Positions 354 through 60,481 of a stretch of 64,000 nt of DNA are shown here, piece after piece (positions within the stretch are counted from its first letter, which is position 1; every line of letters begins with the position of its first letter). Under the pieces are notes generated by a model, which was given only the letters and a program-made list of their open reading frames with translations, ran no database searches and was not told the origin of the DNA. The position numbers were made by a program, and so were the translations under genes. Origin of the DNA: Escherichia coli (GTDB lineage Bacteria > Pseudomonadota > Gammaproteobacteria > Enterobacterales > Enterobacteriaceae); the NCBI RefSeq assembly GCF_024223415.1, contig NZ_CP100500.1; one strand, written 5' to 3'.

Positions 354-3220
<2,867 letters not shown>

Positions 3221-7666: not shown

Positions 7667-7674
7667 AGGTAAAA

Positions 7675-7941: not shown

Positions 7942-8081
7942 TGAAAGTCCTTAACTCTCTGCGTACCGCAAAAGAACGCCATCCAGACTGTCAGATTGTG
8001 AAGCGAAAAGGACGGCTGTATGTGATTTGTAAATCTAATCCACGTTTTAAGGCCGTTCAGGGTCGTAAGAAAAAACGTTGA
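7941..8081 (+). CDS. ykgO: ribosomal protein L36 paralog
   Basis: 46-codon [49 protein letters not shown]; start overlaps the ykgM stop (ATGATG). Below the track size cutoff; read from sequence. Confidence 0.85.
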
Positions 8082-9096: not shown

Positions 9097-9708
<612 letters not shown>

Positions 9709-9782
9709 ACTCCAGGCAAGTTAGTTTTGAAAAATGACTCACTGGGACATCACGTCCTCAATTCAACTCGGGAAGAAATACA

Positions 9783-10370: not shown

Positions 10371-10427
10371 TCTCTCTGATGTACCAGCAGGGGTAGCCCC
10401 CCTGCTTTATTCCTGGACGGAATTGTT

Positions 10428-11096: not shown

Positions 11097-11121
11097 ATAG
11101 CTGTGCAGATGGATAACGACA

Positions 11122-15959: not shown

Positions 15960-16271
15960 TACTTATCCATCGGTCGAGGGAAGAATTCCACCTCAGAGAC
16001 TCAAAAATCGTTTAAATGATGTGGAAGCGATCGTCAATATCACCTGTAACGATGGGCTTTCTCATATGCACACCATAGTGTTCAGGAGACACAGAAAGGT
16101 ACCAGGCAGCCTGCTAACGAGTGGTTTATTCACGAATTAGTACGTAAAATCGGTAACGGCTGGAAATCATTCAATACTCACACTATCGAAAGTTCCCCAG
16201 CCAACCGCGGTACGTTCTTACATACGATGTACCGCTGTTCTCTTTACGATTTATAGCTGTACTGGTGAATT

Positions 16272-16601
16272 ATGAGCAATCTGAATCCATGCATGACGTG
16301 TGGTGCCTGTTGTGCATTTTTCCGCGTCTCTTTTTACTGGGCCGAAGCCGACGATGCTGGCGGCACTATTCCCGCCAGGCTCACTGAACAAATATCCCCT
16401 TTTCACCGATGCATGAGCGGAACTAATCAGAAAAACCCCCGATGTATTGCCCTTGCAGGAACCCCGGGCAAAAATGCCTGCTGCACGATATATAAAAATC
16501 GATCGTCCACATGCAGAGAATTCGCCATGTCTGGTGAGAACGGAGTCGTCAATGAGGCTTGCAATCGTGCAAGGGCTAAATACGGGCTGACACCGTTATA
16601 A
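16272..16601 (+). CDS. ykgJ: cysteine-rich YkgJ-family protein (putative metal-binding)
   Basis: 109-aa ORF with CxxCxxCC motif ([11 protein letters not shown]); position matches K-12 order as recalled. Confidence 0.8.
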
Positions 16602-16624
16602 ACATACAATAATTAATTGCACTG

Positions 16625-16656
16625 CCCCGCCAGCGATAATAGCGGGGCTTCGTTTT
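16625..16656 (+). terminator. rho-independent terminator after ykgJ
   Basis: Hairpin CCCCGC-N-GCGGGG followed by a T-rich run, directly after the ykgJ stop. Confidence 0.55.
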
Positions 16657-16847
16657 CAGGGACAACAAAACCCGATACTTCTTCTATTTGCCAGCAACAA
16701 TGCCTCTCTTCTGTAGCGTTCTTCGGATCTACATCATCCTGAAGTGGCACGATATACTCACTGGCTATCTGCATCAGAATATAAAAAGCAATGTTTTTAA
16801 CCTATAAAAATGGCGCTGTATTTGCGCCATTTTTATCATTCAATGCA

Positions 16848-17462
16848 TTATCTGTTTGAGCCTAAAGGGATCTCAGGATCTGGCTCATGAGTAATTCTGT
16901 TTCGTAAATCTCTGCGAATAATTTCAATAGACCAGAACCAGACTAAATGTCCAAAAATTTCAGAGACATTCTCATACCACGGAAGATCAAACAGAGGTGG
17001 TGTCAGTCCCATGAGAGGGAATGAAATCATATGAACAAAAAGTTGGGCTAAAGCACCTGCCAGTAAGCCCTGCCAGAGTTTAATTTTTGGAAATACTTCA
17101 GCGACCACACAATAACCGACAGCAAACACTATCGAAAAGATAATGTGCGTAACACCAACCCAGTTAAAGACATGCCCGGCAAAGGTATAAACAGCCGCAT
17201 TGGGATCTGTCAGCCCCAGCCAGTCTCGAAGAAAAATATACGGAGGATTGAGAAAATTACGCGAGCAATCAATTTGCCCAGCAGCCCTGATTAATGATTC
17301 CGGGCCACACGCTGCATTAAACATATCCACCGGGCTACGTGGCGGCAATGGAACTTCAGCCCCCCACTTCACAAATGCGGAAACAACGCCAGCAATCAGC
17401 CCAATGAATGCAGCAAGACCATAACGTCTGCGGTTCGGTGGAGTTTGTTCAAATATATTCAT
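16848..17462 (-). CDS. yagU: inner-membrane protein YagU (DUF1440)
   Basis: 204-aa ORF with several hydrophobic helices; position between ykgJ and paoA. Confidence 0.8.
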
Positions 17463-17878
17463 ATCTACCCTGCTTGTACCATTATGTTATACACCTCTTT
17501 AGGAGTATTCATAAAACAAGGAAAATGTAAAGAACCGTATTGTTTTGTATAACAAGATGGTTGTCTAATCGCCAAAGAATATAAGCACCATCATTTCTCC
17601 CTATTTTTATATTAGAAGTGACATAGATTTGCAGGGTGATGCAGAGCTGACAATCACAGGTTTCCTTATCGGTTTTTGCATCGTACAACTCAAGCAATAA
17701 ACCAGCTCCCATCATCATCAACATCCCGGCGAACATGAATTTATTAGCCGGGCTCATAGCTGCATTCGCGTTTTAAGAATAATCCTCCTGCTGTCGCCGA
17801 CTATGCTTAACGTTTAAAAAAGCATCAGCACTCTCGCAACGCACTCTTATTTTCCCTTTAGAATACCGGAGGCCTGGT

Positions 17879-18568
17879 ATGAGCAACCAAGGCGAATACC
17901 CCGAAGATAATCGGGTTGGGAAGCACGAGCCGCACGATTTCAGTTTGACCCGTCGCGATCTGATTAAAGTGAGCGCCGCAACGGCGGCGACCGCCGTGGT
18001 TTATCCTCATTCTACGCTTGCGGCAAGCGTTCCGGCAGCTACACCCGCGCCAGAGATAATGCCCCTGACACTTAAGGTGAACGGCAAAACCGAGCAGCTT
18101 GAGGTGGATACCCGAACCACGCTACTGGACGCTTTGCGTGAAAATCTGCATTTGATCGGTACCAAGAAAGGTTGCGATCACGGACAGTGCGGAGCCTGTA
18201 CCGTGCTGGTCAATGGTCGCAGGCTTAATGCCTGCCTGACGCTTGCAGTCATGCATCAGGGGGCCGAGATCACCACCATTGAAGGCCTGGGTTCACCAGA
18301 TAATCTTCACCCCATGCAGGCGGCCTTTATCAAGCATGATGGCTTCCAGTGCGGCTACTGCACCTCCGGGCAAATTTGCTCATCAGTAGCGGTGCTAAAA
18401 GAGATTCAGGACGGCATTCCCAGTCACGTCACGGTCGATTTGGTTTCCCCTCCAGAAACAACTGCCGATGAGATCCGTGAACGTATGAGCGGCAACATCT
18501 GTCGCTGTGGTGCATACGCTAACATCCTTGCCGCCATTGAAGACGCTGCGGGGGAGATAAAATCATGA
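17879..18568 (+). CDS. paoA: periplasmic aldehyde oxidoreductase, 2Fe-2S subunit
   Basis: 229-aa ORF with twin-arginine signal ([16 protein letters not shown]) and two 2Fe-2S cysteine clusters ([11 protein letters not shown]; CGYCTSGQ). Confidence 0.9.
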
Positions 18569-19521
18569 AGGCGTTTACCTATGAACGAGTGAACACCCCC
18601 GCCGAGGCGGCACTTAGCGCTCAGCGCGTACCCGGCGCAAAATTTATCGCGGGCGGGACCAATCTGCTGGACCTGATGAAGCTGGAAATTGAAACGCCCA
18701 CCCACCTTATCGATGTGAACGGGCTCGGGCTCGATAAGATCGAAGTGACCGACGCGGGTGGGCTGCGCATCGGCGCACTGGTACGGAACACCGACCTGGC
18801 GGCTCACGAGCGCGTGCGTCGTGATTACGCGGTACTCTCCCGCGCCCTGCTCGCTGGCGCGTCTGGTCAGTTACGCAATCAGGCAACCACAGCAGGTAAT
18901 CTGCTCCAGCGCACGCGCTGCCCCTATTTTTACGACACCAATCAGCCCTGCAATAAGCGCCTGCCCGGGAGCGGCTGCGCGGCGCTTGAAGGCTTTAGCC
19001 GTCAGCACGCGGTGGTAGGCGTAAGCGAAGCCTGCATTGCCACCCATCCGAGCGATATGGCGGTCGCAATGCGGTTGCTGGATGCGGTGGTGGAAACCAT
19101 CACGCCGGAGGGAAAGACTCGCAGTATCACACTGGCTGATTTTTATCACCCACCGGGGAAAACGCCGCACATTGAAACCGCCCTGCTTCCCGGTGAGCTT
19201 ATCGTTGCGGTGACGTTACCTCCGCCGCTCGGCGGAAAACATATCTACCGTAAGGTGCGCGATCGCGCCTCCTACGCCTTTGCCCTGGTATCGGTCGCGG
19301 CGATTATTCAGCCTGACGGCAGCGGGCGCGTCGCGCTGGGCGGAGTAGCACATAAGCCCTGGCGCATTGAGGCTGCGGATGCTCAGCTATCCCAGGGGGC
19401 ACAGGCCGTGTATGACGCGCTGTTCGCCAGCGCCCATCCCACCGCTGAAAACACCTTTAAACTCCTGTTGGCGAAGCGAACGCTTGCCTCCGTACTGGCT
19501 GAAGCGAGGGCACAGGCATGA
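18565..19521 (+). CDS. paoB: periplasmic aldehyde oxidoreductase, FAD-binding subunit
   Basis: 318-aa ORF; start overlaps the paoA stop, indicating translational coupling. Confidence 0.9.
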
Positions 19522-39922: not shown

Positions 39923-40690
39923 TTAGCGCGTTCGCTGCGAAAGCACCTGCTGCTTATCCAGCTTTTGCACCAGCGGCTGCACCACTTTATCCCCATGCTG
40001 ACCAAAGTATTGATACAGCGTATCGGACGCACTTTTGGTCAACACCATAATCTCAATACGCCGATTGCCCGCGCTTTGCGGATTTTTGGCATCCAGCAGC
40101 ATCTGGTCCGCCATTGCGCTTACCTGCATCACTTTATCTTCCGGCATTCCGGCCTCTTCCAGCACCCGACGAGCCGAAAGCGCGCGGTCACCCGAAAGGT
40201 TCCAGTTGTTGTAGATATTGTTTTTGTAGGCCATCGCATCGGTATGCCCGGTAATAATAATTTTATTATCGAGCGAGTCGAACACTGGCGCTAACTCCAC
40301 CAGCAGCGTTTTAAAGAACGGCATAATCTGCGCGCTGCCGCGTTCGAACATATTGCGATTCTGGTCGTCTTTAATCAGCACGCGTAATCCCTGCGGGACA
40401 ATCTCCATCTCCAGATTCGCTTCCATATGCGCATCACGGGCAATGGTGTTGATACTGGTTGCCAGCTCACCAAGCTCGGTGGCGGATTTCTTCTTCAGCA
40501 GCGCCGTTTTCTCGTTGACGTCGCGCGCTTTTTTCTCCGTCTCTTCCGGCACCGCCACGGTGGCAGGTTTTGGCGGATGAGACGGGCTGATTTTATTTAA
40601 CGGCGACAACCCGCCACCGTTGAAAATCGACTGCCCGTGCAGCGCGGCGATAATGCTTTCACGCTCGGATTTACTGACGCTGTTGACAAT
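39923..40690 (-). pseudogene. lafU: MotB-like stator protein remnant of a lateral flagellar (Flag-2) system
   Basis: C-terminal OmpA/MotB-like domain is intact, but the N-terminal membrane segment is replaced by read-through into the antisense of lfhA. Confidence 0.6.
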
Positions 40691-42392
40691 CAACTTTATC
40701 GTCGTCACCAAAGGGGCCGAGCGTATTTCCGAGGTTTCTGCCCGCTTTACCCTGGACGCGATGCCCGGCAAACAGATGGCGATTGACGCCGACCTTAACG
40801 CCGGGTTGATCAACCAGGCGCAGGCGCAAACCCGGCGTAAAGATGTCGCCAGCGAGGCCGATTTCTACGGCGCGATGGACGGGGCATCGAAGTTTGTGCG
40901 CGGGGATGCCATCGCCGGGATGATGATTCTGGCGATCAACCTGATCGGCGGCGTCTGTATCGGGATCTTCAAATACAACCTGAGCGCCGATGCCGCCTTC
41001 CAGCAATATGTGCTGATGACCATCGGCGACGGCCTGGTGGCGCAGATCCCTTCCCTGCTGCTCTCCACGGCGGCGGCGATTATCGTCACCCGCGTCAGCG
41101 ACAACGGCGATATCGCCCATGACGTGCGCCACCAGCTGCTGGCAAGCCCGTCGGTGCTCTACACCGCCACCGGGATCATGTTCGTGCTGGCGGTGGTGCC
41201 GGGGATGCCGCACCTGCCGTTTTTGCTGTTCAGCGCCCTGCTTGGCTTTACCGGCTGGCGGATGAGCAAACGCCCGCAGGCGGCGGAGGCGGAAGAGAAA
41301 AGCCTCGAAACGCTGACCCGCACCATCACTGAAACCAGCGAGCAACAGGTCAGTTGGGAAACCATTCCGCTGATCGAGCCCATCAGCTTAAGCCTCGGCT
41401 ACAAACTGGTGGCGCTGGTGGACAAAGCGCAGGGCAACCCGCTCACCCAGCGTATTCGCGGCGTACGGCAGGTGATATCCGACGGTAACGGCGTGCTGCT
41501 GCCGGAGATCCGCATTCGGGAAAACTTCCGCCTTAAGCCGAGCCAGTACGCCATTTTCATCAACGGTATTAAGGCTGATGAAGCGGATATTCCGGCGGAT
41601 AAACTGATGGCCCTGCCCTCCAGCGAAACCTACGGCGAGATTGACGGCGTGCTGGGGAACGACCCGGCGTACGGGATGCCGGTCACCTGGATCCAGCCCG
41701 CGCAGAAAGCGAAAGCGCTGAATATGGGGTATCAGGTGATCGACAGCGCCAGCGTGATTGCCACCCATGTGAACAAGATTGTCCGCAGCTATATTCCTGA
41801 TTTGTTTAACTATGATGACATCACGCAGTTGCATAACCGTTTGTCGTCGATGGCACCGCGCCTGGCGGAGGATTTAAGCGCGGCGCTCAATTACAGCCAA
41901 TTGCTGAAAGTGTACCGGGCGCTGCTGACCGAAGGCGTTTCCCTGCGCGATATCGTCACCATCGCCACCGTGCTGGTCGCAAGTAGCACGGTGACCAAAG
42001 ATCATATTCTGCTGGCAGCTGATGTGCGCCTGGCACTGCGGCGCAGCATTACCCATCCGTTCGTTCGCAAGCAGGAGCTGACGGTGTATACGCTGAATAA
42101 TGAGCTGGAAAATCTGCTGACCAACGTGGTGAATCAGGCGCAACAGGGCGGGAAAGTGATGCTCGACAGCGTGCCGGTCGACCCGAATATGCTCAACCAG
42201 TTCCAGAACACGATGCCGCAGGTAAAAGAGCAGATGAAAGCGGCGGGGAAAGACCCGGTGCTGCTGGTGCCGCCTCAGCTGCGCCCTTTGCTGGCGCGTT
42301 ATGCAAGGTTGTTTGCGCCGGGGCTGCATGTGCTGTCGTATAACGAAGTGCCGGATGAGCTGGAGTTGAAGATTATGGGGGCGTTGATGTAG
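40683..42392 (+). pseudogene. lfhA: FlhA-family export-gate remnant lacking the N-terminus
   Basis: Homology to FlhA starts at about residue 130 of the family (FIVVTKGAERISEVSARFTLDAMPGKQMAIDADLNAG); no proper start or promoter. Boundary approximate. Confidence 0.65.
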
Positions 42393-42605
42393 GCATGATA
42401 AGACGCGTCAGCGTCGCATCAGGCATCGGTGCATAACCGCCGGATGCGGCGTGAACGCCTTATCCGGCCTACCGTTCAGGCGCAGGTTTGTAGGCATTAT
42501 AAGATGTGCCAGCGTCGCATCAGGCATCCGCGCACAATTGCCGGATGCGGCACAAGTTTGTAGGCATGATAAGACGCGCTAGCGTCGCATCAGGCATCTG
42601 CGCAC
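42393..42605. repeat. REP/BIME array (about four REP units)
   Basis: Repeated GCCGGATGCGGCG and CAGCGTCGCATCAGGCA units in alternating orientation. Confidence 0.8.
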
Positions 42606-42607
42606 AA

Positions 42608-43105
42608 TTATAAAATGATACGCTCCCCAGCACTCAAATCCGTTATGTCTCCCGCCCAATTGATGGGATATAACCCTCGCGCGACATCGCGATGGAACGT
42701 TGAGAATGGCCAATCACTCACTTGCTTTACCCAGCCATGTTTTACTGGATTTATATAAATATAATCAACATGATGGCGATAGTTTTTGGTATTGCGGATG
42801 GTGTGCTCCCAAAAACGTGGTTGCCAGATATTTTTCAATCCACAAGCATGGGTGAACTGCTTTTTAATCTCCCGCCAGCGAGAGGAAAAATCATCATCGC
42901 TTTCGGGTAATGTCCATATGCAATGCATATGCTCCGGCAAAACTACCCAGGCATTAATTTCAAAAGGTCTGGCTCGCTTAACTTTAATAATGGCGTTACG
43001 GAGCGTCTGGTACTGGGTAGTCAAAAGTTGGCTTCGACGATTCCGTAAATTCACCGTGAAAAACCAGGTTCCCCCTTTGATGTAATACCGACGATATTCA
43101 GACAT
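42608..43105 (-). CDS. rayT: REP-associated tyrosine transposase
   Basis: 165-aa ORF recognised as a REP-associated tyrosine transposase from the translation; flanked on both sides by REP arrays. Confidence 0.85.
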   Translation of the reverse strand: MSEYRRYYIKGGTWFFTVNLRNRRSQLLTTQYQTLRNAIIKVKRARPFEINAWVVLPEHMHCIWTLPESDDDFSSRWREIKKQFTHACGLKNIWQPRFWEHTIRNTKNYRHHVDYIYINPVKHGWVKQVSDWPFSTFHRDVARGLYPINWAGDITDLSAGERIIL

Positions 43106-50653: not shown

Positions 50654-51421
50654 GTGCCTGGTTTGAAGATTACGCTTTTGCAGCAACCACTGGTGTGGAT
50701 GGATGGCCCTGCCAACCTGCGTCATTTTGATCGTCAACTGGAAGGTATTACCGGGCGCGATGTGATCGTTCTACCGGAGATGTTTACCAGCGGCTTTGCC
50801 ATGGAAGCGGCTGCTTCGTCGCTAGCACAAGATGACGTAGTGAACTGGATGACAGCCAAAGCGCAGCAGTGCAATGCGCTGATTGCAGGCAGTGTTGCAT
50901 TACAAACGGAGTCTGGTTCGGTTAACCGCTTTTTGCTGGTTGAGCCGGGCGGCACGGTACATTTTTATGATAAGCGTCATCTGTTCCGCATGGCAGATGA
51001 GCATCTGCATTATAAAGCGGGCAATGCGCGAGAGATTGTGGAATGGCGCGGCTGGCGTATTTTGCCGTTGGTGTGCTACGACTTACGTTTTCCGGTGTGG
51101 TCGCGCAATCTCAACGATTATGACCTCGCCATCTACGTTGCCAACTGGCCTGCTCCGCGCTCTCTGCACTGGCAGGCATTGCTGACGGCCCGCGCGATTG
51201 AGAATCAGGCGTATGTGGCGGGATGCAATCGCGTCGGCAGCGATGGCAACGGCTGCCATTATCGCGGTGACAGCCGGGTGATTAATCCACAGGGCGAGAT
51301 TATCGCTACTGCCGACGCGCATCAGGCAACGCGCATTGATGCGGAGCTGTCGATGGCGGTGTTAAGGGAATATCGCGATAAGTTTCCGGCATGGCGGGAT
51401 GCGGATGAGTTTAGGTTGTAG
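50654..51421 (+). CDS. yafV: nitrilase-family omega-amidase
   Basis: Carbon-nitrogen hydrolase family ORF; start taken at GTG 50654 ([11 protein letters not shown]...), preceded by an AAGGAG ribosome-binding site. Confidence 0.85.
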
Positions 51422-51479
51422 TGAGTGGGTGTTGTGTTTAGGGCTGGGGAGAGTCGGGGAAGACTACGAAAGCCCGCTC

Positions 51480-51849
51480 TCCTGCGACCACTTTTATCAT
51501 AGGAGTGTGGAAGTGCTTTTCCATCAATCGCGATGACGTCTTTGTCATTTGATGAATGGCAGTCACGCATCCAGTTAATAAAGCACTCGTGAAATTTTGC
51601 AGGACTGATACAGGATACAACTCTGGCAATGGTATCGTGAACAGGGATACCATTTTCAAAATCACCATATTGTTTTAAAAAATCGAGATGTGTTTCCCCA
51701 AAATCCTCTATATCTTCCCAACCTTCTACACCAGAAATAACGGCACAAATAGTCAACAGAAGAATATCTGACAATTTATGTTCCACTTTCCAGGCTTGAC
51801 TGTAATCGGGAATAATAGAAATATGTTCCATCAATTTTTTAAGTTCCAT
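51480..51849 (-). mobile_element. H-repeat (ISAs1-family) transposase N-terminal fragment
   Basis: N-terminal ~120 residues ([40 protein letters not shown]...) match H-repeat-associated proteins; similarity is lost after about residue 123 and the ORF runs into the yafV 3' end. Has its own AAGGAG ribosome-binding site. Confidence 0.7.
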
Positions 51850-52152
51850 TTTTTCTCCTTATTTATGTAAGGAGTATTTGATCATGTATAAGCAATAAAA
51901 AACAGCTTCAGGTAATGAGGAATATCTCAATTTTTAAACATAAAATGCGAATTATTTAGTATAAAAAGTGTACTTCTGATGATCTTTCCCTGGATTTACA
52001 TTAGGTTGGTTATTTTCCATACCCACAACTATATTTTCTCTCTGAATTTAATACGTGCAAGACAATCGCAGCACTCTAACTGACTTCGATGTGATTTGAT
52101 GTTCAGAAAAATCCCTCATTAGATTATTATCATGAAATACAGCCAATTATCT

Positions 52153-53103
52153 TTAGTTTTTATATTTCTCAATATATTCTTTTGAAAGGATTCGCGCCTT
52201 TTCAAACTCTTCAGGAGTTAATCTATTTTCCATCTTCAATTTATATTGAACACTTTTATCAAGTCCATGAGCGTATGCGGCACTGAACCAGGCATATGCC
52301 TTTTTATTATCGAGTGGTAACTCTTTCGTGCCTACGGAATAGATTAATGCAAGATTATGTTGTGCAACAGGATCACCATGTGTGGCTGACTTTCTTAACA
52401 GTTCTATTGCTTTATATTTATTTACAGTAATCCCACCCAGTCCTTCATAGTAAAAGATACTTAGTGCTGATTGTGCTTTTATGAAACCTTGACTTGCCGA
52501 TTTATCATACCAAAAGGCGGCTTTATTATAATCCTTTTTAATAATAACGCCTTCATAATAGAGTCGCCCTAAATGATACTGAGCAACCTTATCCCCTTGC
52601 TCCGCAGCGATACGATACCACTTATCTGCCAGATCTTTTTTATTAGTCTCATCATATAGTAAAGCAAGGTTAGTTTGAGCCGTAACTAATCCAGAATTTG
52701 CAGCTTTATTTAACCACGCTATGGCCTTACCATAATCTCTTATCACGCCACTCCCTTTACTATATAATACTCCTAAGTTTCCCTGCGCTTCTGGAAAACC
52801 TTTTTCAGCTGCCATTTGATAACATTCAAATGCTTTTTCATAATTTTGAGACACCCCATAACCATGAGCATACATAACACCGAGGTTATACTGAGCCTCT
52901 GTCAGCCCCTGTTTTGCTGCAAGCGAGTACCAATATACTGCATCTTTATAACTCTGGATTCCTTCAGAACCACTTCGATATAACTCCGCGAGTTTAAATT
53001 GCGCAGTAGCATCTCCCTTATCAGCATCTTTTCTTATATATGTCATTTTATTGGAGGCTGCTGTGTCTTCTGTCACCCCAATTGCAACAGGAATACTCAA
53101 CAC
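52153..53103 (-). CDS. Sel1-repeat (TPR-like) protein; candidate immunity protein for the upstream Rhs toxin
   Basis: About eight tandem ~36-aa Sel1-type repeats (AQxNLGxxYxxGxGVxxDYxKAxxWYxKAA). Low GC, 45 bp downstream of the Rhs stop. Start codon uncertain (GTG at 53103 or internal ATG). Confidence 0.8.
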   Translation of the reverse strand: MLSIPVAIGVTEDTAASNKMTYIRKDADKGDATAQFKLAELYRSGSEGIQSYKDAVYWYSLAAKQGLTEAQYNLGVMYAHGYGVSQNYEKAFECYQMAAEKGFPEAQGNLGVLYSKGSGVIRDYGKAIAWLNKAANSGLVTAQTNLALLYDETNKKDLADKWYRIAAEQGDKVAQYHLGRLYYEGVIIKKDYNKAAFWYDKSASQGFIKAQSALSIFYYEGLGGITVNKYKAIELLRKSATHGDPVAQHNLALIYSVGTKELPLDNKKAYAWFSAAYAHGLDKSVQYKLKMENRLTPEEFEKARILSKEYIEKYKN

Positions 53104-53147
53104 TTCAAAAAAAAAACATCACAACAACACACATTAATATTTTTCGA

Positions 53148-56100
53148 TTATTTTTTATCGGCATCTTTTTTATCATCACCTTTAAATTTATCTACCGCTT
53201 CACTAGAAGTCATGTCAGTAATATAATCTCCAAATGCATTTTCAGGCACAAAGGGCAATTTACCCAAAGTTGCACCTAATAATTCCTCCGCTCCTGTATC
53301 AGCAGCAGCATAAACACCAGATTTAAAATCCCCTCCCTTACTTAAAAATGACAATCCCATTTTCAAAGCTATTTTCTCAACAAACGTTTTTCCCGCTCCC
53401 CAAGAACCACCTAAAGCACATAGCGCCAACTCGGATTTATCCGGCATCTTATGATCAGACATATAGTCAGTCGTAGCAACCGCACCACATGAACTAAGAC
53501 TTCCAATTGCTATCTCCCCCCATGTAAGAGTCCCCCCTTCTAATGCAGCCGCACTTGCTACTGGCTCGGTAAATACTACTCCGGCAATAACAGGAGGCAG
53601 TAAAGCCCATCCTTTTACATAATCGTCTAATGGATTATACACTCCACGCATACTTGAAAAATCATCCAACGCTTTAAATTTTTCTTCATCTGACAGGTTC
53701 GGGGCGAATCCAACATTAGCCCCCTGCATAGTGTTATAATAATTAGTTCCAAATATCATTTGCGGCGTTACATTAGCTAACCCCAACGGATCTATATGTT
53801 CAATAGGATTGAGTGGGTACTGGTAAGGATTTAATCCTCCTTCCAGCCCAATCGGGTCCTGGGTGATATACCGTCCCTGCAACGGGTCATAGTACCGGTG
53901 ACGGTTGTAATACAGCCCCGACTCCTCATCATACTGCTGTCCCGGCAGACGGTACGGCTGTTGCAGGTGCTGCGCGCTGGTTTCGCCCAGCAGGTTTCCC
54001 CACTCGTCATACTCCCCCTGCCACGCCGTTTCCCCTTCCGGGCTGATGAGCGCCTGCGGCAGTCCCCGGTGGTCGCAGTGGTAAAGATGAAGTTTCCGCT
54101 CCGGGATGTATTCCGCCTCCAGCTGCGCGGCCATCTGCTCCGCCGTCAGCCCGCACTGCGCAAGCCATGCCTCACTCTCCGCACTCACCGCTCCCGCGCG
54201 CAGTTCCCGCTCCAGCCTCCCCAGCATCACCGACAGCTCCGCCGGTAGCGTCACACCCGTGTCCTCTTGCAACACCTCCGCCAGGCTCCGGTGCCGCGCC
54301 TTCGCCTGTTCGCCATTCTCTGTTTCGATTCTCAGGAGCGGCGTGAAGCTCCCCGGCTGGTATACCGTCTGGATACGCGTGGTGCCGGTCTGTATCGTCG
54401 TCAGCCTGTCGCCGTCCCACCCGTACCATGTCACCTCCGGTTTACGCGACAACGACATCCACCCCGTCAGGTCACGCTCCCGCCGCCATACCCGTTTTCC
54501 CGTCCGGCGGCCCAGCGGGTCATAGAGGTAACGGCTCTCCACCTGTGGTTCGCCGTGCTGTATCCGCGTGTAGAACACCAGGCGGTGCTGGCTGTCGTAG
54601 TGGTAGTGGTGGGTCCGCTCGTCGTGCATCCGGATAACCCCTTCCGGGATGCGGTCCGTCTTCTCCGCCAGCCTGCCGTATTCATCGTGGCGGTAGACAT
54701 AGTGCGCATCTTCCGCGATGCGGTTATCCGGCCACGCCGTGAGCGTGCTGTCCGGGTGCAGTTCCGGGTCCGGCAGCCGGTTTCCCGCCGGGTCTGTTGC
54801 ATACGGGATATCGATATCCAGGTTCGCCGCCGTGGTGTGGACGCCCGTCAGCCTTCCCGTGTCACTGTAACGGTACTCCCGGCTCTCCTGCGGGCCGCTG
54901 ATGCGGATTAGCTGTCCGTTGTCGTTCCAGTCGTAGTCACGGTCAAGCTGCGGGAGGTTCAGGTGCCTGCTCCGGAGCTGGCCGCTGGTATTCCAGGCGG
55001 TGGCAAGTTCATATGCCTCCCCGCCGAAGCTGCGGGCCGTCTCACGGTGCAGCCGGTCCCGCGTGTACTCGACCAGTGGCGTTCCGCCCAGCTTCATCCC
55101 CGCAAGATAACCGCTGCCATACGTCAGCCACTCTACCGGCGGCAGACCGTCCGGCTCCTGACGGGTCGCCAGTCCCTGTTCGCTGTACGCGTGCCCCGTC
55201 TCATGCTCCCACAGCATCTCCCCCGTCTCCGGGTTCTCCACCGTCTGCCGTTCGCCCGTCAGGCGGCCTTTATCGTCATAGCCGTAGTGGACCGCCACAC
55301 GGTGGCCTTCACTGGTATGGCTGATGGTGGTTAACCACCCGTGCTCATCATACTGCCACTGCTCCGCCGGGTCGCCGTTCACCGTCCGGTGCGTGATGCG
55401 GTCCGACGCATCGTAATGCCAGAGGGTGATAAGTCCCTCATCTTCACTCTGCGTGAGTTTTCCGGTCAGGTCATAGTGGTAACGTTGCGTCCGCCCGTCA
55501 AAACCGCGCTGTTCAGTCAGCCTGTCCACCGGGTCATACCGGAACGTGGACTGGCTGCCGTTCTCGTTGGTCAGCACGGTGATGCGCCCGGCAGCGTCAT
55601 ACCCCATGCTGCGCGTAAGACCGCCTTCCGTCACACTCACCGGACGCCCGCGTTTATCATATTCGATGGTGCTGCATTTACCGTCCGGTGATATCGTTGC
55701 TGTCAGGTCGCCTGCGGCGCTGTACTCATAACGGATTTCACGCCCCTGCGCATCCTTCTGACTGACCAGTTGCCCACGCGGGTTATAACTGCTGTAAGTG
55801 CTGATGCCTTCTTCCCGGTGAACGGCGATTTGTTGACCGTACCGGTCGTACTCATACCGCGTCGTGTACCCCGAGCAGTCCGTAAAGGCCAGCAGTTGAC
55901 CGTAACGGCTCCATGCCATCTGTTTTGTACTGCCCGTCGCATCCTCTATCCCTGTCGGCAGCTCACTCGCCGGGTCATCATAGCTGTAACTCGTCGTCTC
56001 ACCGCTGCGTGAGGTCTCCGCCGCCAGCCTTCCCTTCTCATCATACTCCCGGCTGCTGCGAAGCCCGTCCGGGTACGTCACCGACGTCACCTGCCGCTGG

Positions 56101-57536
56101 CTGTTATAGCCATACCGTACCGTCCTGCCGTCCGGCCCCGTCACCGCCGTCACCGCACCCGACGCCATATGCAGGCTGTACTCCGTCCGCTGCCCCGCCG
56201 CATCCGTCTGTGCCTTCAGCCTCCCCGCCTCATCATACTCGCTGCGGGTGATGCTCCCGTCCGCATGCTCCTTCTTCACCACCCGCTTCAGGCCGCCTTC
56301 GCCCTCCGTGTACAGCACCTCCCGCCGGTTCAGGCTGTCCGTGATGGTCACACGGTCCTGCCCGTACTCAAAGCGGTAGTCCAGCCCCTCCGGGTTGACC
56401 TGCTCCGTCACCCGACCGGTATCATCATACCGGTAGCGGCTCTCCGGCCTCCCTGCATAATGGTGCGCCACCATCCGCCCCGCGTGCTCCGCATCATAAG
56501 TAAACCCGCGCACCTGCGTCCCGCTGCGGTCATACACCGCCCGCAGTTCTCCGCTGGCCGTGTACGTGTAGCGCGCCAGCGGCGCAGTCGGCTGTTCATC
56601 CGGGTATGCCGGGTCGTGTGTCAGCCACACCGCCTCCAGCCGGATACCGTTATCGGCACCGTACTCTGTACCGGTGGGCAGCGTGTCGGGGAAAACCTGA
56701 GAAGAGGAAACAGAACGGGGACTGGCCGGGGAAGATAAGGAAGACTCGCGCTGTTTACGGAAGGCTTCCGCCCGCTGCGCCTGTGTGGTCAGCGCCAGGT
56801 GAAAACGGCGGCCCGCGCCGTCCGTCACCCCCGTCACCGCGCCCGCCACGTCACCCTCCGCCGCCCTGTGAAAGGCCAGCGTCCGACCAAAGCCATCCAC
56901 CACGCCCGTCAGCACCCGGTATGCGGGCGGCTCCGGCGGCAGCACCTCGTCCGCCTCCGGCACCCGCTCCGGCCAGCTGAGCACCAGCCACTGCCCGGTT
57001 GTGCTGACAGCCATCATATAGGTGTGTGGACTCAGACGGACCGCTTCCGGCAGCGCCCGCCAGAGCCGGGCCAGCGGGTGGTCTTTGTGTTGTTTCAGCA
57101 CCCCACCCCTTGCCAGCCAGAGTGACTCGCTGCGGCTGTAGCTTATCTCGCCGGGAAACAGCGGCTCAAAGTGAATGCTCCTGCCGCCGTTGTCGTTGAG
57201 TATCAGTTCCCGCTCATGAATCTGTAAGCGGATATCAAAGGGGGCTTTCCAGCCGGGGCCAAACACCCCCACCGGCGCGGGCGTCCTGGTCCGGTAACTG
57301 CTGTAGGCACGGGAAAGAATGAACGGCAGCGGGCCGGGCAGCGCAAGGTCCGTCTCGCCCGGCAGCACCTTCGCACCCAGTAGCGGGTTCACCGGGTTAG
57401 CATAGGTAATCCCTCCCGGACACACCGAGCAGGCCACTCCCGTCGGCGCACCTATCAGCACCCCCGCTGAACCCTGCACAATATCCAGTCCCTTGCGGGT
57501 CATATCACCCTGCCGCGCCGCCGGTTTTCCGCCCAT
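53148..57536 (-). CDS. rhs: Rhs-family polymorphic toxin with N-terminal PAAR-like motif and variable C-terminal domain
   Basis: 1462-aa ORF: N-terminus [12 protein letters not shown], long YD-repeat core, core-terminal PxxxxDPxGL motif (DPIGLEGG...IDPLGL), then a 209-aa low-GC extension. AAGGA ribosome-binding site. Confidence 0.9.
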
Positions 57537-57611: not shown

Positions 57612-59753
57612 TCAAAATTGCCGCATATCCGGCATTCCGGGGGGTAAATCTTTCGGCACAGGCGCATCCGGTACAGGTTGTGTGGCACCACAGTTCCAGT
57701 TAATCACCGGCGCATCACCGTTCACATCCGACTCCCCTTCCAGATGAATGTGCGTACCATTAAGAAATATGCTTCCGTCCTTCGTCAGCACCAGCCTTGC
57801 CTTACCACAGCAGAGTTCAAGATGCTCACCGGCAGAATAAACTGCTGTTTGTCCGGTGTTTTCCTTCATCGTCTTGCCCACCGAGAAGGTGACGTTATTC
57901 CCTACATTGACGCTGTAGCCCATTCCCACCATCAGTGATTTATGCAGCCCTACCTGTGAGGACTGCAACAACGCCACCGAGGTATTCATAATGCCGCCTA
58001 CCGTCGTCTGATACGCCACACCCACCGTCAGCGCACGAATGATCCCCACCTTTTCAACCTGGTTTGATCCCACTTTGATAATCTGGTTACTGCCTACCGT
58101 TTCCACCTGGTTGACACCAACCGTCTGTATCTGATTAACGCCAATGTTCTGGATCTGGTTATTGGTAACGGTGATCGCCTGGTTGTTACCTATTTTTTCG
58201 GCATGGTTGTTTATCACATCCGTGGTGCGGTTATTCAGCACCTCGGTGTTCATGTTCTTCTGCGCGTGGATGTAGACCTGTTCTTTCCCTGTCGCATCGT
58301 CAAACTTCAGTTCATTAAACCCGCTGCCCTTATAGGTTTTCGAACGAATGGTCATCTGCGTCTTTGTTCCCGGCAGGCTGCCGGGTGTGCGGTTTTCCTG
58401 GTGGTAGGTGCGCCCCATAATGATCGGCTGGTCCGGATCGCCGTTGAGGAAGTCCACAATCACCTCCTGACCCACGCGCGGTATCGCAAGGTTACCGAAT
58501 CCGGTGCCTGCCCACGCCTGTGCCACACGGATCCAGCATGAACTGTCCTGGTTTGACGGGTTATAACGGTCCCAGTTAAATTTCACCCGCACGCGGCCAT
58601 GTTCATCACAGAAGATTTCCTCGCCTGCCGGTCCCGTCACGACGGCGCTCTGCGGGCCGTCCACCAGCGGTTTCAGCAACGGCTGTGGTCGCCATGTTCT
58701 GTCTGCCGGTATTACCGCAAAATGGTTATCCAGCGTGGTGCCTGAACCCCTGCGTCCCGGTACCGCCTGCGGCTGTTCGCCGTGAAGATCGCTCGCCACC
58801 ACCTGCCATTCCCGGTTCAGGTTCGCCTGCGGATGCCCCGTCAGCACAATTTGCCGTCCCGGCCATATCTCCGGCGAACGGCTTGTTCCGCGCGCCACTT
58901 CTGCGTTGTTGCGCCAGCCATCCATCTGCCAGCGGGCAAAGTTCTGCCCGTGGGCGCCCTTGAAACGTCCGGGGTAGTCATACACTTCATACTGTGTGCG
59001 CTGGTAATCCTGGTACTGGCCTTCCTGATCAAAACGCCCTGCCCAGCCGGGTCGTTTAAAGGTGTAGTCTTTGGTCACCACGGAAGAAGGGCGGATTTGT
59101 GCGCTGTAGCGAAACTGGCTGATGCAGAGGGTGCTTACCTCGGTACGGGTGTTCGGATTCCAGGGGATCTCAAAGGACTCCGGCAGATAACGCACGGTAT
59201 CGCACAGGACCAGGCTTTGGTCGGTACTTTTTTGCGCGTGCTCCTCATAAAAGAAGATGCCTTCCTCCGCCGCCATCCGGCACAGGAAATCGTAATCAGT
59301 CTCACCGTACTGGACACAAAACTCACGGGAAGGATGTGGCTCGCTGAACAGCGGGCTCCACTCGGTCACCCCGTTTTCCTGCAATATCGTGCCGAGGATG
59401 CTTTCGATGTCCTCATTCTGGAAGATACGGAAGTTCTGGCGCAGCCCTGTGCGCCACAGCGGCGGGCATACCTTCATGCTGTACAGCTTCTGGTTTTTGT
59501 CGTTCTCCCCCAGTTCAAACCAGGTCACCACACCTTTCACCCGGCGCTGTACGTCATCGCCCTGCCATATCGTCAGGTAGGCCATTTTGTCGAGGATCTG
59601 CTGGAATTCAAGGGAGAGAAACTGCTGGCTGACCAGAGAGAGATCGAGGGAAAAAAGCGAAGAGAGTGACTGGTTCAGATGAAAGGAGACCACCGCAAAA
59701 GCATCCGGTGGCAGGCCGTCCACTTCCAGCGTGAAACGTAATCCGGTTGACAT
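57612..59753 (-). CDS. vgrG: type VI secretion spike protein VgrG
   Basis: 713-aa ORF recognised as VgrG from the N-terminal sequence and size; C-terminal repetitive (beta-helix-like) region. Confidence 0.9.
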   Translation of the reverse strand: MSTGLRFTLEVDGLPPDAFAVVSFHLNQSLSSLFSLDLSLVSQQFLSLEFQQILDKMAYLTIWQGDDVQRRVKGVVTWFELGENDKNQKLYSMKVCPPLWRTGLRQNFRIFQNEDIESILGTILQENGVTEWSPLFSEPHPSREFCVQYGETDYDFLCRMAAEEGIFFYEEHAQKSTDQSLVLCDTVRYLPESFEIPWNPNTRTEVSTLCISQFRYSAQIRPSSVVTKDYTFKRPGWAGRFDQEGQYQDYQRTQYEVYDYPGRFKGAHGQNFARWQMDGWRNNAEVARGTSRSPEIWPGRQIVLTGHPQANLNREWQVVASDLHGEQPQAVPGRRGSGTTLDNHFAVIPADRTWRPQPLLKPLVDGPQSAVVTGPAGEEIFCDEHGRVRVKFNWDRYNPSNQDSSCWIRVAQAWAGTGFGNLAIPRVGQEVIVDFLNGDPDQPIIMGRTYHQENRTPGSLPGTKTQMTIRSKTYKGSGFNELKFDDATGKEQVYIHAQKNMNTEVLNNRTTDVINNHAEKIGNNQAITVTNNQIQNIGVNQIQTVGVNQVETVGSNQIIKVGSNQVEKVGIIRALTVGVAYQTTVGGIMNTSVALLQSSQVGLHKSLMVGMGYSVNVGNNVTFSVGKTMKENTGQTAVYSAGEHLELCCGKARLVLTKDGSIFLNGTHIHLEGESDVNGDAPVINWNCGATQPVPDAPVPKDLPPGMPDMRQF

Positions 59754-59962
59754 AGCAACCTCCGGGGTTAAGGAAAAACAGACAGTTCACTGTTAAAGCG
59801 GCTGTGACAGTACAGTGTTACGCTTGCGTTCAGGCACGCTACCGCCGAAGTTTCCGGCAGCCGCCATCTCCCGTGAACGTAACCCCTTACTGACAACCTT
59901 TCTTTCTACGGCGTAATACAAAAACAGCATCCGGCCTGATAGCCGGATGCTGTTGGCTTAAC

Positions 59963-60481
59963 TTATGCTTCCAGCGGTGCGCGCCAGTCGTCGGCACCGG
60001 AGGTGCCAGATTTGACGTGTTCCCATTCAATTTTGCGGTAGGCCAGTGAAACTTCGAGCAACTGGGTGAACTCGCGTTTCGCCGGGTCCTGGCAATGCGG
60101 CATATGCAGTTTCATATCGACAATCGTCGAATCAGTCAGGCGGGTAGTGAAATAATGCTCCTGTTTGCCTTCCACAGAGGTACGCCACCAGTGAAGTTCA
60201 GTGGTTGGCAGCATTTCGCCGGAGGCCAGTGCGTTGTACATCAGCGGAACCGCTTTGTTCAGCGCCACGGTAAAAATGAAAGGCTTGTGAGCACGCTGAC
60301 CCGCAGGCTGACCGGACTGAGGATCGGTCGGGACAGTAACGTTATGCAGGAATTCCTGCACCAGCATCTCGTCTTCGTGCCCCTGCACATAGATGTTGCC
60401 GACAGAATCAGCGGTAAATGCACCTGCAGTAATATTTCCCTGGGTCTGACCAGTGATGGAGATATAACACGGTGTTGGCAT
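59963..60481 (-). CDS. hcp: type VI secretion tube protein Hcp
   Basis: 172-aa ORF recognised as Hcp from the translation; directly upstream of vgrG. Confidence 0.9.
   Translation of the reverse strand: MPTPCYISITGQTQGNITAGAFTADSVGNIYVQGHEDEMLVQEFLHNVTVPTDPQSGQPAGQRAHKPFIFTVALNKAVPLMYNALASGEMLPTTELHWWRTSVEGKQEHYFTTRLTDSTIVDMKLHMPHCQDPAKREFTQLLEVSLAYRKIEWEHVKSGTSGADDWRAPLEA

What the first reader, a model, noticed from the sequence alone, without database searches (positions are those of the whole stretch)
53101..53134. T10 homopolymeric tract at the 5' end of the Sel1-repeat gene sets the reading frame
On the coding strand the sequence reads ATG TGT GTT GTT GTG ATG then ten T then GAAGTGTTGAGT. 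With ten T the upstream ATG frames terminate after nine codons (MCVVVMFFF, stop), and the long ORF can only start at GTG 53103 or an internal ATG, neither with a clear ribosome-binding site. With nine T the upstream ATG at 53134 would be in frame with the whole Sel1 ORF. A 10-nt mononucleotide run is long for E. coli and would be prone to slipped-strand mispairing, so expression of the candidate immunity gene could be tract-length dependent. This is speculative.
Basis: seen in the sequence. Interest (0 to 1): 0.4.

Follow-up and report, generated by a model that had tools for sequence, protein, structure and literature searches.

The report
Frameshifted poly-T tract in immunity gene
The ten-T run is real, but it is a one-base slippage mutation of a normally nine-T run that codes for three phenylalanines in the export signal of an E. 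coli toxin-immunity gene, so this strain carries a broken (or at best leaky) copy rather than a demonstrated genetic switch.

Summary
The T10 run (window 53107-53116, minus strand) is confirmed. It is the only A/T run of 9 or more bases in the 64 kb window. Among 32 complete E. coli genomes carrying this Rhs/Sel1 module, 27 have T9, 4 have T10 and 1 has T12. Draft assemblies add T8.

With T9 the gene is a 336-codon ORF. It starts at ATG 53164, which has the only Shine-Dalgarno match and overlaps the rhs stop by 17 nt. It encodes [23 protein letters not shown]..., a charged then hydrophobic signal or anchor sequence in which the tract is Phe-Phe-Phe. A 58%-identical homologue keeps this start and signal but has no T run.

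T10 splits the gene into a 19-codon stub and a signal-less 316-codon ORF, which annotation pipelines rescue with GTG 53103. T10 is heritable: window, KV7 and NCTC10444 have no indel differences over ~30 kb. It arose at least twice. In both cases the lineage already carried a tssG 23-bp deletion or an rhs frameshift.

Best reading: slippage-hotspot frameshift under relaxed selection. Transcriptional slippage or +1 shifting at UUU-UGA may partly rescue it. Programmed phase variation is not excluded but is unsupported.

The parts
53107..53116 (-). T10 homopolymer. In most strains it is T9, the codons TTT TTT TTT for Phe17-Phe19 of the immunity pre-protein.
   Evidence: T9 in 27, T10 in 4 and T12 in 1 of 32 complete genomes. 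T8 in three further assemblies.
53162..53164 (-). ATG, the most likely true start codon of the Sel1 immunity gene. It lies inside the 3' end of rhs.
   Evidence: PGAP start of the 336-aa WP_001695458.1 in T9 genomes. It is the only candidate start with a Shine-Dalgarno match. The equivalent ATG overlapping the rhs stop is conserved in the 58%-identical homologue L008.
53177..53182 (-). Shine-Dalgarno-like AAGGTG, 12 nt upstream of ATG 53164
   Evidence: Duplex with the 16S 3' end has dG -6.9 kcal/mol, against -6.0 for the rhs start and -2.2 or weaker for all other candidate starts.
53105..53164 (-). 5' stub ORF created by the extra T: [19 protein letters not shown] followed by TGA, which directly abuts the tract
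   Evidence: (translation)
53132..53134 (-). Prodigal-type callers use it as the start (326-aa product).
   Evidence: no Shine-Dalgarno match
52153..53103 (-). 3' ORF of 316 codons in the +1 frame, carrying six Sel1 repeats. It lacks the signal sequence. RefSeq annotates it from GTG 53103 as WP_001312555.1.
   Evidence: Pfam PF08238 E=1.5e-54 with 6 stretches
52153..53164 (-). The whole immunity gene as a +1T frameshift allele. Removing one T gives the 336-aa protein found in T9 genomes.
   Evidence: one search compared
53148..57536 (-). rhs gene (1462 aa). Its stop codon TAA 53148-53150 lies between the two candidate immunity starts.
   Evidence: RHS core models NF041261/TIGR03696/PF03527; annotated RHS element core protein
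53151..53777 (-). Variable C-terminal toxin domain of Rhs: 209 aa after the DPLGL motif, AT-rich, with no family match and one hydrophobic segment
   Evidence: A homologous CT sits next to the homologous Sel1 gene in L008.
57612..60481 (-). VgrG (57612-59753) and Hcp (59963-60481), the T6SS delivery genes upstream of rhs
   Evidence: annotation of identical loci
51322..51849 (-). Truncated ISAs1 (H-repeat) transposase fragment that marks the end of the Rhs module
   Evidence: annotation

Best explanation
The tract belongs to the coding sequence of the immunity gene that follows the T6SS Rhs toxin. In its intact form the gene starts at ATG 53164 (translationally coupled to rhs, with a 17-nt overlap) and encodes a 336-aa Sel1-repeat protein. 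Its first ~30 residues ([30 protein letters not shown]) form a Sec-type signal peptide or signal anchor. Three consecutive Phe codons, all TTT in this 36-38% GC module, create a T9 run. Replication slippage on that run added one T in an ancestor of the window's strain. The result is a 19-codon stub ending in TGA and a 316-codon Sel1 ORF with no export signal and no ribosome-binding site. The exported immunity protein is therefore lost or strongly reduced. The allele is heritable and is tolerated because the cognate weapon was already inactive in the lineages where it appears (inferred). A minority of full-length protein is probably still made. RNA polymerase could drop one U on the U10 run, and ribosomes could shift +1 at UUU-UGA; both routes yield exactly the wild-type sequence (inferred from published slippage data, not shown here). 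Shown here: tract polymorphism, frame consequences, start-codon evidence, heritability, and at least two origins of T10. Inferred: export, immunity function, relaxed selection, leaky rescue.
For: (1) Of 32 complete genomes with the module, 27 have T9, 4 have T10 and 1 has T12. T12 adds one Phe and stays in frame. (2) In T9 genomes PGAP annotates a 336-aa protein starting 17 nt inside rhs. Deleting one T from the window reproduces it. (3) Only ATG 53164 has a Shine-Dalgarno match, with dG -6.9. (4) The 58%-identical homologue L008, extended to its own ATG overlapping the rhs stop, reads MIIKNKKIWLYIMPALFLWGSC... It aligns without gaps from residue 2/3 onward, but its DNA has CTC TTT TTA and no long run. 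The signal is therefore conserved and the tract is not. (5) The N-terminus has three basic residues followed by a segment with Kyte-Doolittle 19-residue mean 2.54. The T10-type product has none (0.48). (6) Phe codons are TTT in 15 of 18 cases in the module, so FFF gives T9 by composition. (7) Window, KV7 and NCTC10444 are independent assemblies with 0 indels between them over 21-31 kb. They differ from NCTC9112 and O78 strain 3 by only one indel, the tract. Six further draft or complete assemblies of the same haplotype also have T10. T10 is therefore real and inherited. (8) DSM 103246 (T10) differs from ABW_A19 (T9) by 4 SNPs in 20.5 kb and lies about 160 SNPs from the window's clone, which indicates a second origin. 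T8 occurs in two haplotypes. (9) The tssG 23-bp deletion is shared by T9 and T10 members of the window's clone. The rhs 1-nt deletion is shared by ABW_A19 (T9) and DSM 103246 (T10). (10) E. coli RNAP restores about 10% of expression at T8 for both insertion and deletion, and more with longer runs (PMC6260861). About 20% frame restoration was measured at an A11 run in Citrobacter tssM1 (PMC4256274).
Against: Export and immunity function are inferred from sequence only. No SignalP-type predictor or experiment was available, and the h-region contains a Glu. The toxin domain has no recognisable family, so an envelope target is a deduction from the immunity protein's signal. The association between non-T9 alleles and damaged T6SS/rhs is weak statistically: 5 of 5 versus 6 of 13, one-sided Fisher about 0.054 ignoring phylogeny, and only about 3 independent events. 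The window itself ends before tssG, so its T6SS status is unknown, and its rhs, vgrG and hcp are intact. Out-of-frame alleles are not rare: 610 index blocks against 1279 and 938 for T9 products. This could also reflect selection for OFF states. The phylogeny within the window's clone is star-like (all SNPs private). T10 monophyly and the order of events are therefore parsimony arguments only.
Confidence: 0.7

Rival explanations
1. Contingency locus. The T tract is a selected, reversible ON/OFF switch, driven by slipped-strand mispairing, for the export or expression of the immunity protein. Clones would then alternate between immune and non-immune states.
For: Four tract lengths (T8, T9, T10, T12) occur in otherwise near-identical loci. 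KV7 (T10) and NCTC9112 (T9) have 0 SNPs in 20.5 kb. There were at least 4-5 independent length changes. Out-of-frame alleles are a sizeable minority. The tract has not been broken up by synonymous TTC codons in any E. coli copy seen.
Against: In-frame lengths dominate, with 28 of 32 complete genomes. T10 is stably shared by at least 9 assemblies of one haplotype that differ by several private SNPs and come from pig, calf and human hosts; fast switching would randomise the length. Both well-resolved T10 origins are nested in lineages that already carry a tssG or rhs lesion. The homologue L008 keeps the signal without any tract. E. coli is mismatch-repair proficient and a T9-10 run is expected to mutate far more slowly than classical contingency tracts (general knowledge). 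No selective benefit of switching off an immunity gene is evident.
Confidence: 0.12
2. Selected recoding. The T10 allele is a functional gene whose full-length product is deliberately made at a set ratio by transcriptional slippage and/or +1 ribosomal frameshifting at UUU-UGA, as in Citrobacter tssM1 or Shigella mxiE.
For: U10 exceeds the 9-nt threshold at which slippage becomes significant (PMC1088944). E. coli RNAP slips preferentially on poly-T (PMC6260861). The stop codon abuts the run, a 'shifty stop' arrangement (PMC5009743). There is a T6SS precedent (PMC4256274). The 316-codon downstream ORF is still identical at protein level to the T9 allele in every place looked at.
Against: The out-of-frame arrangement is not conserved. 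Most strains, and the distant homologue, are in frame, unlike tssM1/mxiE where the frameshifted arrangement is the conserved state. Sequence divergence within the T10 clone is too low for the intact downstream ORF to indicate selection. Some leaky rescue is likely, but that is a side effect and not a programme.
Confidence: 0.08
3. Sequencing or assembly artefact. The true tract is T9 and the tenth T is a homopolymer error.
For: Long-read assemblies miscall homopolymers. SCU-316 (T10) has 37 gap positions against the window in 31 kb and a fragmented vgrG. Two of the T8 records have fragmented or uncalled rhs genes.
Against: Window, KV7 and NCTC10444 agree at every homopolymer over 21-31 kb, with 0 gaps. 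T10 recurs in at least 9 independent assemblies of the same haplotype, including short-contig drafts. NCTC9112 is a sister genome whose record has the same form (NZ_LR1340xx, 'chromosome 1, complete sequence') and shows T9; a shared source and sequencing platform is my assumption, not a tool result.
Confidence: 0.03
4. One reading: the gene natively begins downstream of the tract (GTG 53103 or ATG 53046) and makes a cytoplasmic Sel1 protein. The tract would then be 5' leader sequence.
For: RefSeq annotates exactly this (WP_001312555.1, 316 aa) in T10 genomes. A Salmonella homologue is annotated from the equivalent position.
Against: There is no Shine-Dalgarno match at any downstream start. T9 genomes give a continuous ORF with a conserved signal sequence. 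The Salmonella contig simply ends 3 nt upstream of that start, so its start call is forced by the contig end. The best NCBIfam matches of the Sel1 domain, all far below their curated cut-offs, are MerG, MotX, AlgK and ExoR, which I recall as envelope or periplasmic proteins (own knowledge, not a tool result).
Confidence: 0.05

Closest known systems
Citrobacter rodentium tssM1 poly-A (A11) transcriptional frameshifting (Gueguen et al. 2014, PMC4256274)
   Same: A long A/T homopolymer sits inside a gene of an enterobacterial T6SS cluster and interrupts the reading frame. Frame restoration by RNA polymerase slippage (about 20% there) would give the canonical full-length protein.
   Different: In Citrobacter the interrupted arrangement is the conserved, functional state and both products are needed. 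Here the interrupted state is a minority allele of an otherwise in-frame gene, lies in an immunity gene and not a core component, and slippage has not been measured.
Shigella flexneri mxiE / spa13 T9/A-run transcriptional slippage (as reviewed in PMC1088944 and PMC5009743)
   Same: A run of nine or more T in the sense strand joins two overlapping frames when RNAP slips.
   Different: In mxiE the two-frame organisation is fixed and regulatory. Here T9 is the in-frame wild type and T10 is a mutation.
Classical phase-variable contingency genes with intragenic homopolymers (Haemophilus, Neisseria, Campylobacter; own knowledge)
   Same: An intragenic mononucleotide run near the 5' end whose length sets the frame, with length polymorphism between closely related isolates.
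   Different: Those organisms show high switching rates and ON/OFF mixtures within cultures, usually with G/C tracts and weak or absent mismatch repair. Here in-frame alleles dominate, OFF alleles are clonally inherited, and no within-culture data exist.
Homopolymer frameshift pseudogenes partly rescued by polymerase infidelity (endosymbiont poly-A tracts, e.g. Blochmannia, PMC3017870; concept discussed in PMC1088944)
   Same: A single-base indel in a run of nine or more A/T disrupts an ORF that can still yield some correct product through transcriptional slippage.
   Different: Those cases occur in AT-rich, repair-poor reduced genomes. This one is in a horizontally acquired AT-rich module of a normal E. 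coli genome.
Sel1-like-repeat T6SS immunity proteins such as P. aeruginosa PA5086-5088 for Tle5b/PldB (PA5088 is mentioned in PMC7216683; the rest is own knowledge)
   Same: A Sel1-repeat protein encoded next to a T6SS effector and carrying an N-terminal export signal. It is presumed to neutralise a toxin that acts in the envelope.
   Different: The effector here is an Rhs C-terminal domain of unknown activity, not a phospholipase. There is no sequence relationship beyond the repeat type, and immunity has not been tested.

Membership tests
Sel1-like repeat proteins (Pfam PF08238) | Multiple 36-residue Sel1 repeats scoring above the Pfam gathering threshold | tested here: met
   E=1.5e-54, 180.9 bits against a cut-off of 30.7, 6 repeats. 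PDB Sel1 proteins match at up to E=8e-78.
Rhs (T6SS) toxin-immunity module | Rhs core ending in a PxxxxDPxGL-type motif, followed by a variable C-terminal domain of different base composition | tested here: met
   RHS core models match residues up to the motif. DPLGL lies at residues 1249-1253 and is followed by 209 aa. GC falls from about 0.65 to about 0.37-0.45.
Rhs (T6SS) toxin-immunity module | A small gene immediately downstream of, or overlapping, the toxin 3' end, and co-inherited with that particular CT | tested here: met
   There is a 17-nt overlap in T9 genomes. In L008 a homologous CT is followed by the homologous Sel1 gene, again with the start overlapping the rhs stop.
Rhs (T6SS) toxin-immunity module | The downstream protein neutralises the toxin | not testable with these tools
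   This requires co-expression or competition assays.
Sec-type signal peptide / signal anchor | A positively charged n-region followed by a hydrophobic h-region of at least 10 residues at the N-terminus | tested here: met
   MPIKNNRK followed by ILMCVVVMFFFEVLSIPVA, with Kyte-Doolittle 19-residue mean 2.54. The position is conserved in L008 (MIIKNKK followed by IWLYIMPALFLWG).
Sec-type signal peptide / signal anchor | A recognisable cleavage site, and demonstrated export | tested here: inconclusive
   There are possible sites at VLS/I or AIG/V, and a lipobox-like WGSC in L008, but no predictor or experiment was available. A Glu interrupts the h-region.
Phase-variable contingency locus (simple-sequence-repeat switch) | A repeat tract in the coding region or promoter whose length sets expression | tested here: met
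   T9 and T12 are in frame; T8 and T10 are out of frame.
Phase-variable contingency locus (simple-sequence-repeat switch) | Tract-length polymorphism among closely related isolates | tested here: met
   Within one haplotype there are T8, T9, T10 and T12.
Phase-variable contingency locus (simple-sequence-repeat switch) | High-frequency, reversible switching within a clonal population | not testable with these tools
   No read-level data are available. Clonal inheritance of T10 across at least 9 assemblies argues for a low rate.
Programmed transcriptional slippage / recoding site | The out-of-frame two-ORF arrangement is the evolutionarily conserved state | tested here: not met
   27 of 32 complete genomes and the distant homologue are in frame.
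Programmed transcriptional slippage / recoding site | A heterogeneous mRNA population with a ±1 nt difference at the run | not testable with these tools
   This needs cDNA sequencing. It is expected from published E. coli RNAP behaviour on T8 and longer runs (PMC6260861).
Intrinsic terminator T-stretch | A GC-rich hairpin immediately upstream of the T run | tested here: not met
   0 terminator-like sites in 52000-53500. There is only a weak A6:U10 pairing, with dG -11 and z -2.6.

The most novel reading that the evidence does not exclude
The T run is a true expression switch or rheostat for a T6SS immunity protein in E. coli. DNA slippage (T8/T9/T10/T12) would set heritable ON/OFF states. In OFF alleles, RNA polymerase slippage plus +1 shifting at UUU-UGA would provide a low, tunable level of exported immunity protein. 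Clones could then trade the cost of immunity against protection from kin carrying the same Rhs toxin.
Probability: 0.15. Interest if true: 0.6.

Novelty: new member of a known kind. Interest (0 to 1): 0.3.

Why it matters
Three practical points follow. First, annotation pipelines hide this frameshift by picking a downstream GTG. RefSeq therefore lists a 316-aa 'tetratricopeptide repeat protein' as intact in T10 strains. Surveys of T6SS effector/immunity repertoires would count these strains as immune when the export signal is missing. Second, the locus is a clean natural series (T8, T9, T10 and T12 on a near-identical background). It could be used to measure replication slippage, transcriptional slippage and 'shifty stop' frameshifting in a native E. 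coli gene. Third, it gives a small worked example of how toxin-immunity modules decay. In two lineages the immunity frameshift appears after a lesion in the delivery machine or the toxin. If it turned out instead to be a real switch, it would be the first phase-variable T6SS immunity gene that I know of in E. coli (own knowledge).

Tried and rejected
- **Metagenome scan:** a variable-length tract pattern returned only one contig, with T9. That is too few for a length distribution.
- **Species-representative scan:** a degenerate 26-nt pattern from the conserved 5' Sel1 region returned 0 hits. No cross-species view of the tract was obtained.
- **Exact look-ups with the listing of cluster members:** the look-up reported that the 316-, 307-, 315-, 297-, 335- and 337-aa products are 'not in the collection'. 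However, the look-up of encoding contigs lists the 316-aa product in 610 blocks. I therefore disregard the negative cluster look-ups.
- **Cluster of P0001:** it contained only partial fragments, and P0001 itself has no gene on record.
- **Salmonella homologue (81% identity):** its contig ends 3 nt upstream of the annotated start, so it says nothing about the tract or the signal.
- **Toxin domain:** no Pfam, NCBIfam or PDB sequence match. The site of toxin action stays inferred.
- **Terminator reading of the T run:** rejected.
- **Association of non-T9 alleles with T6SS/rhs lesions:** suggestive only. Fisher gives about 0.054 by hand, and the events are not independent. I do not claim significance.
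- **Tree within the window's clone:** not possible, because all 31 variable sites in the shared 20.5 kb are private to single genomes.
Full report
**Observation**

On the minus strand the window reads TAA(rhs stop)-TCGAAAAATATTA-ATG TGT GTT GTT GTG ATG-T10-GAAGTGTTGAGT.
- The ten T are at 53116..53107.
- The ATG frame ends at TGA 53107-53105, directly after the run.
- The 316-codon Sel1 ORF (52153..53103) opens only after TGA 53121-53119.
- This is the only A/T run of 9 or more bases in 64 kb. Composition-matched shuffles give 0.11 runs of 10 or more per window, and 0.026 for the AT-rich module itself.

**Context**

The window carries the end of an E. coli T6SS cluster, in this order: tssBC, hcp (59963-60481), vgrG (57612-59753), a 1462-aa rhs gene (53148-57536), the Sel1 gene, a truncated ISAs1 element, then yafV, ivy and fadE. 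The Rhs core models stop at the DPLGL motif (residue 1253). The last 209 residues match no family or solved structure. GC falls from about 0.65 in the rhs core to 0.36-0.45 in the toxin tip and the Sel1 gene. This is the usual signature of an exchangeable toxin/immunity cassette. The downstream protein has six Sel1 repeats (PF08238, E=1.5e-54).

**What related loci show**

The module is rare, present in 32 of 5426 complete E. coli genomes.

A 130-nt query centred on the tract gives these lengths:

| Record span | Number of genomes | Tract |
|---|---|---|
| 129 nt | 27 | T9 |
| 130 nt | 4 (DSM 103246, SCU-316, NCTC10444, KV7) | T10 |
| 132 nt | 1 (AR_0085) | T12 |

I read the tract directly in 19 fetched loci and one metagenome contig, and these readings confirm the lengths.

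In T9 genomes PGAP annotates a 336-aa protein (WP_001695458.1). It starts at an ATG 17 nt inside rhs, equivalent to window 53164. T12 gives a 337-aa protein with one extra Phe. In T10 genomes PGAP calls a 316-aa protein from GTG 53103 (WP_001312555.1), or a 307-aa protein from GTG 53076. It does not flag a frameshift. Deleting one T from the window reproduces the 336-aa sequence.

**Where the gene really starts, and what the tract encodes**

- Of seven candidate starts, only ATG 53164 has a Shine-Dalgarno match: AAGGTG at 53182-53177, with dG -6.9 kcal/mol. The rhs start gives -6.0, and every other candidate gives -2.2 or weaker.
Both are cut off from the Sel1 ORF by the tenth T.
- The 336-aa N-terminus is [34 protein letters not shown]. 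It has a basic n-region and then a segment with Kyte-Doolittle 19-residue mean 2.54. The product starting at GTG 53103 has no such segment (0.48).
- The only informative distant relative is a 58%-identical Sel1 gene next to a homologous Rhs-CT on a Logan contig (L008). It was called from an internal ATG. Extending it to the ATG that overlaps its own rhs stop gives MIIKNKKIWLYIMPALFLWGSC..., which aligns with the E. coli protein without gaps from residue 2/3.
- The overlapping start and the charged-then-hydrophobic N-terminus are therefore conserved. The homopolymer is not: L008 has CTC TTT TTA.
- In E. coli the run is simply Phe17-Phe18-Phe19, written with the TTT codon that this AT-rich module uses for 15 of 18 Phe codons.
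- The best NCBIfam matches of the Sel1 domain, all far below their curated cut-offs, are MerG, MotX, AlgK and ExoR, which I recall as envelope proteins (own knowledge). That fits an exported immunity protein. Export itself is inferred.

**Is T10 real, and how did it arise?**

The window is not identical to any complete genome. It belongs to a tight clone.
- It has 5 SNPs against KV7 and 8 against NCTC10444 in 20.5 kb of shared sequence, with no indel over 21-31 kb. Three independent assemblies therefore agree at every homopolymer, including T10.
- The T9 genomes NCTC9112 and O78 strain 3, from the same clone, differ from the window by a single indel, the tract.
- The out-of-frame 316-aa product is listed in 610 blocks of the public gene index. 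The T9 products are listed in 1279 blocks (336 aa) and 938 blocks (326 aa).
- Of ten places shown for the 316-aa product, seven have T10: six of the window's haplotype plus DSM 103246. Three have T8. Two of the T8 records share a private SNP on the window's haplotype, and one is on a third haplotype.
- DSM 103246 (T10) lies about 160 SNPs from the window's clone but only 4 SNPs from ABW_A19 (T9).

The length has therefore changed at least four or five times: T9 to T10 twice, T9 to T8 probably twice, and one T12. An artefact is very unlikely for the window, although some T8 records and SCU-316 come from visibly error-prone assemblies.

**Background of the frameshift alleles**

- A 23-bp deletion that truncates TssG is present in SCU-316, NCTC10444 and KV7 (T10). 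It is also present in O78 strain 3 and GPEC1446 (T9). It is absent from NCTC9112 (T9) and from all other haplotypes.
- DSM 103246 (T10) and ABW_A19 (T9) share a 1-nt deletion in a GGG run of rhs, at window-equivalent 54513.
- AR_0085 (T12) has lost most of the T6SS and the 5' part of rhs.
- Among 18 inspected genomes, all five non-T9 alleles sit in backgrounds with a visible lesion. T9 occurs in seven intact backgrounds and six with a lesion.
- By parsimony, the lesion in the weapon came first and the immunity frameshift second, in both resolved cases.

This fits relaxed selection on a slippage hotspot, but the support is weak. There are few independent events, the phylogeny is star-like, and the window ends before tssG.

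**Mechanism proposed**

1. Replication slippage on the T9 run produced a heritable +1T allele. This step rests on the data above.
2. The exported immunity protein is then lost or much reduced, because the Sel1 domain is uncoupled from its start codon, ribosome-binding site and signal sequence. This step is inferred.
3. The allele is probably leaky.
   - E. coli RNA polymerase slips preferentially on poly-T. It restores about 10% of expression at T8 for both insertions and deletions, and more with longer runs (PMC6260861).
   - Nine nucleotides is the length at which selection against A/T runs becomes visible in many bacteria (PMC1088944).
   - An A11 run in Citrobacter tssM1 restores the frame in about 20% of products (PMC4256274).
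   - The stop codon directly abuts the run (UUU-UGA). tRNA-Phe can re-pair perfectly in the +1 frame, a 'shifty stop' arrangement (PMC5009743, and my own inference).
   - Both routes would produce exactly the wild-type pre-protein. None of this was measured.

**Rivals**

- **Programmed phase variation** is not excluded. The evidence for it is the length polymorphism, the differences between near-identical strains, and the sizeable OFF fraction. The evidence against it is the dominance of in-frame alleles, clonal inheritance of T10 across hosts and continents, nesting in already damaged lineages, the lack of a tract in the homologue, and the absence of an obvious benefit.
- **Selected recoding** fails the conservation test, because the interrupted arrangement is the minority state.
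- **A terminator role** is rejected. No hairpin precedes the run. There is only a weak A6:U10 pairing.

**Comparison with known systems and verdict**

The locus resembles known homopolymer frameshift sites. It meets the structural criteria of a phase-variable gene (intragenic tract, frame dependence, polymorphism). The defining behaviour, rapid reversible switching, could not be tested. It fails the key criterion for programmed slippage sites.

I file it as a new example of a known kind: a slippage-prone homopolymer frameshift allele, here in the signal-sequence codons of a T6SS Rhs-associated Sel1 immunity gene, masked by automatic annotation. Interest is modest at 0.3. The most novel reading still open is a real immunity ON/OFF switch or rheostat, which I give a probability of about 0.15.

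Noticed in passing
outside the window (tssG, about 12-13 kb beyond rhs); L005:6641-7700, L006, L004, L016, L022: A 23-bp deletion (GCAGGTGGGCGCAATGCGCCTGG) truncates and frameshifts tssG. It is present in five genomes of the window's clone (three T10, two T9) and absent from NCTC9112 and from all other haplotypes. It probably inactivates this T6SS.
   Followed up: yes
window-equivalent 54513 (rhs); L015 and L019: DSM 103246 and ABW_A19 share a 1-nt deletion in a GGG run of rhs (CTGGGCCGCC), which PGAP annotates as 'frameshifted'. ABW_A19 also has IS66 inserted in vgrG, and DSM 103246 has IS66 just downstream of the Sel1 gene.
   Followed up: partly
L013:9841-14118, L014:665-4942 (equivalent to window ~53283): In O157:H16 Santai and on pHNAH212872-2 the rhs ORF is annotated as ending 135 nt early, which removes the last 45 residues of the toxin domain. 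The immunity gene remains T9 and intact. By identity class, H28, H30 and H31 probably share this.
   Followed up: no
L014 (NZ_CP104632.1, 'plasmid' pHNAH212872-2, 1-19324): A record labelled as a 100-kb plasmid carries more than 19 kb of chromosomal backbone in chromosomal order (vgrG fragment, rhs, Sel1, yafV, ivy, fadE, lpcA ... fliR). This is either a captured chromosomal segment or a misassembly.
   Followed up: no
window 53166-53171 (A6 run in the last codons of rhs, just upstream of ATG 53164); L026: One draft genome (CATQYV010000008.1) has A5 instead of A6 here, in addition to T10. The rhs frame shifts so that it is called as 1476 aa running up to the Sel1 ORF. This is a second indel-prone homopolymer about 50 nt upstream of the T tract.
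   Followed up: no
L007:1-12 (Salmonella enterica DAQMYA010000120.1): The contig carrying the 81%-identical Salmonella homologue ends 3 nt upstream of the position equivalent to GTG 53103. That is exactly where the T tract would lie, so the assembly may have broken at a homopolymer.
   Followed up: no
window 53095-53175, minus strand: The RNA fold pairs the A-rich end of rhs (AUAAAAAAU) with the U10 run, with dG -11 kcal/mol and z -2.6; 4 of 200 shuffles fold as well. This is weak A-U pairing of doubtful significance. It would sequester the region between the two candidate start codons.
   Followed up: partly
tools:: the listing of cluster members reported the 316-aa product as absent from the collection, while look-up of encoding contigs lists the same sequence in 610 blocks. 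Negative exact look-ups in the cluster table are not reliable for this protein.
   Followed up: yes
window 51700-52150: The intergenic stretch between the Sel1 stop and the truncated ISAs1 (H-repeat) fragment has very low GC (about 0.30). Across haplotypes it carries T6/T7 and other small homopolymer indel differences (window 51902, 51852). IS66 or ISVsa5 are inserted here in some strains.
   Followed up: no
window 40620-43105: A truncated flhA next to lafU (a remnant of the Flag-2 lateral flagellar cluster) lies in the window's haplotype. Some T9 genomes of other haplotypes keep intact flhA, flhB and fliR.
   Followed up: no
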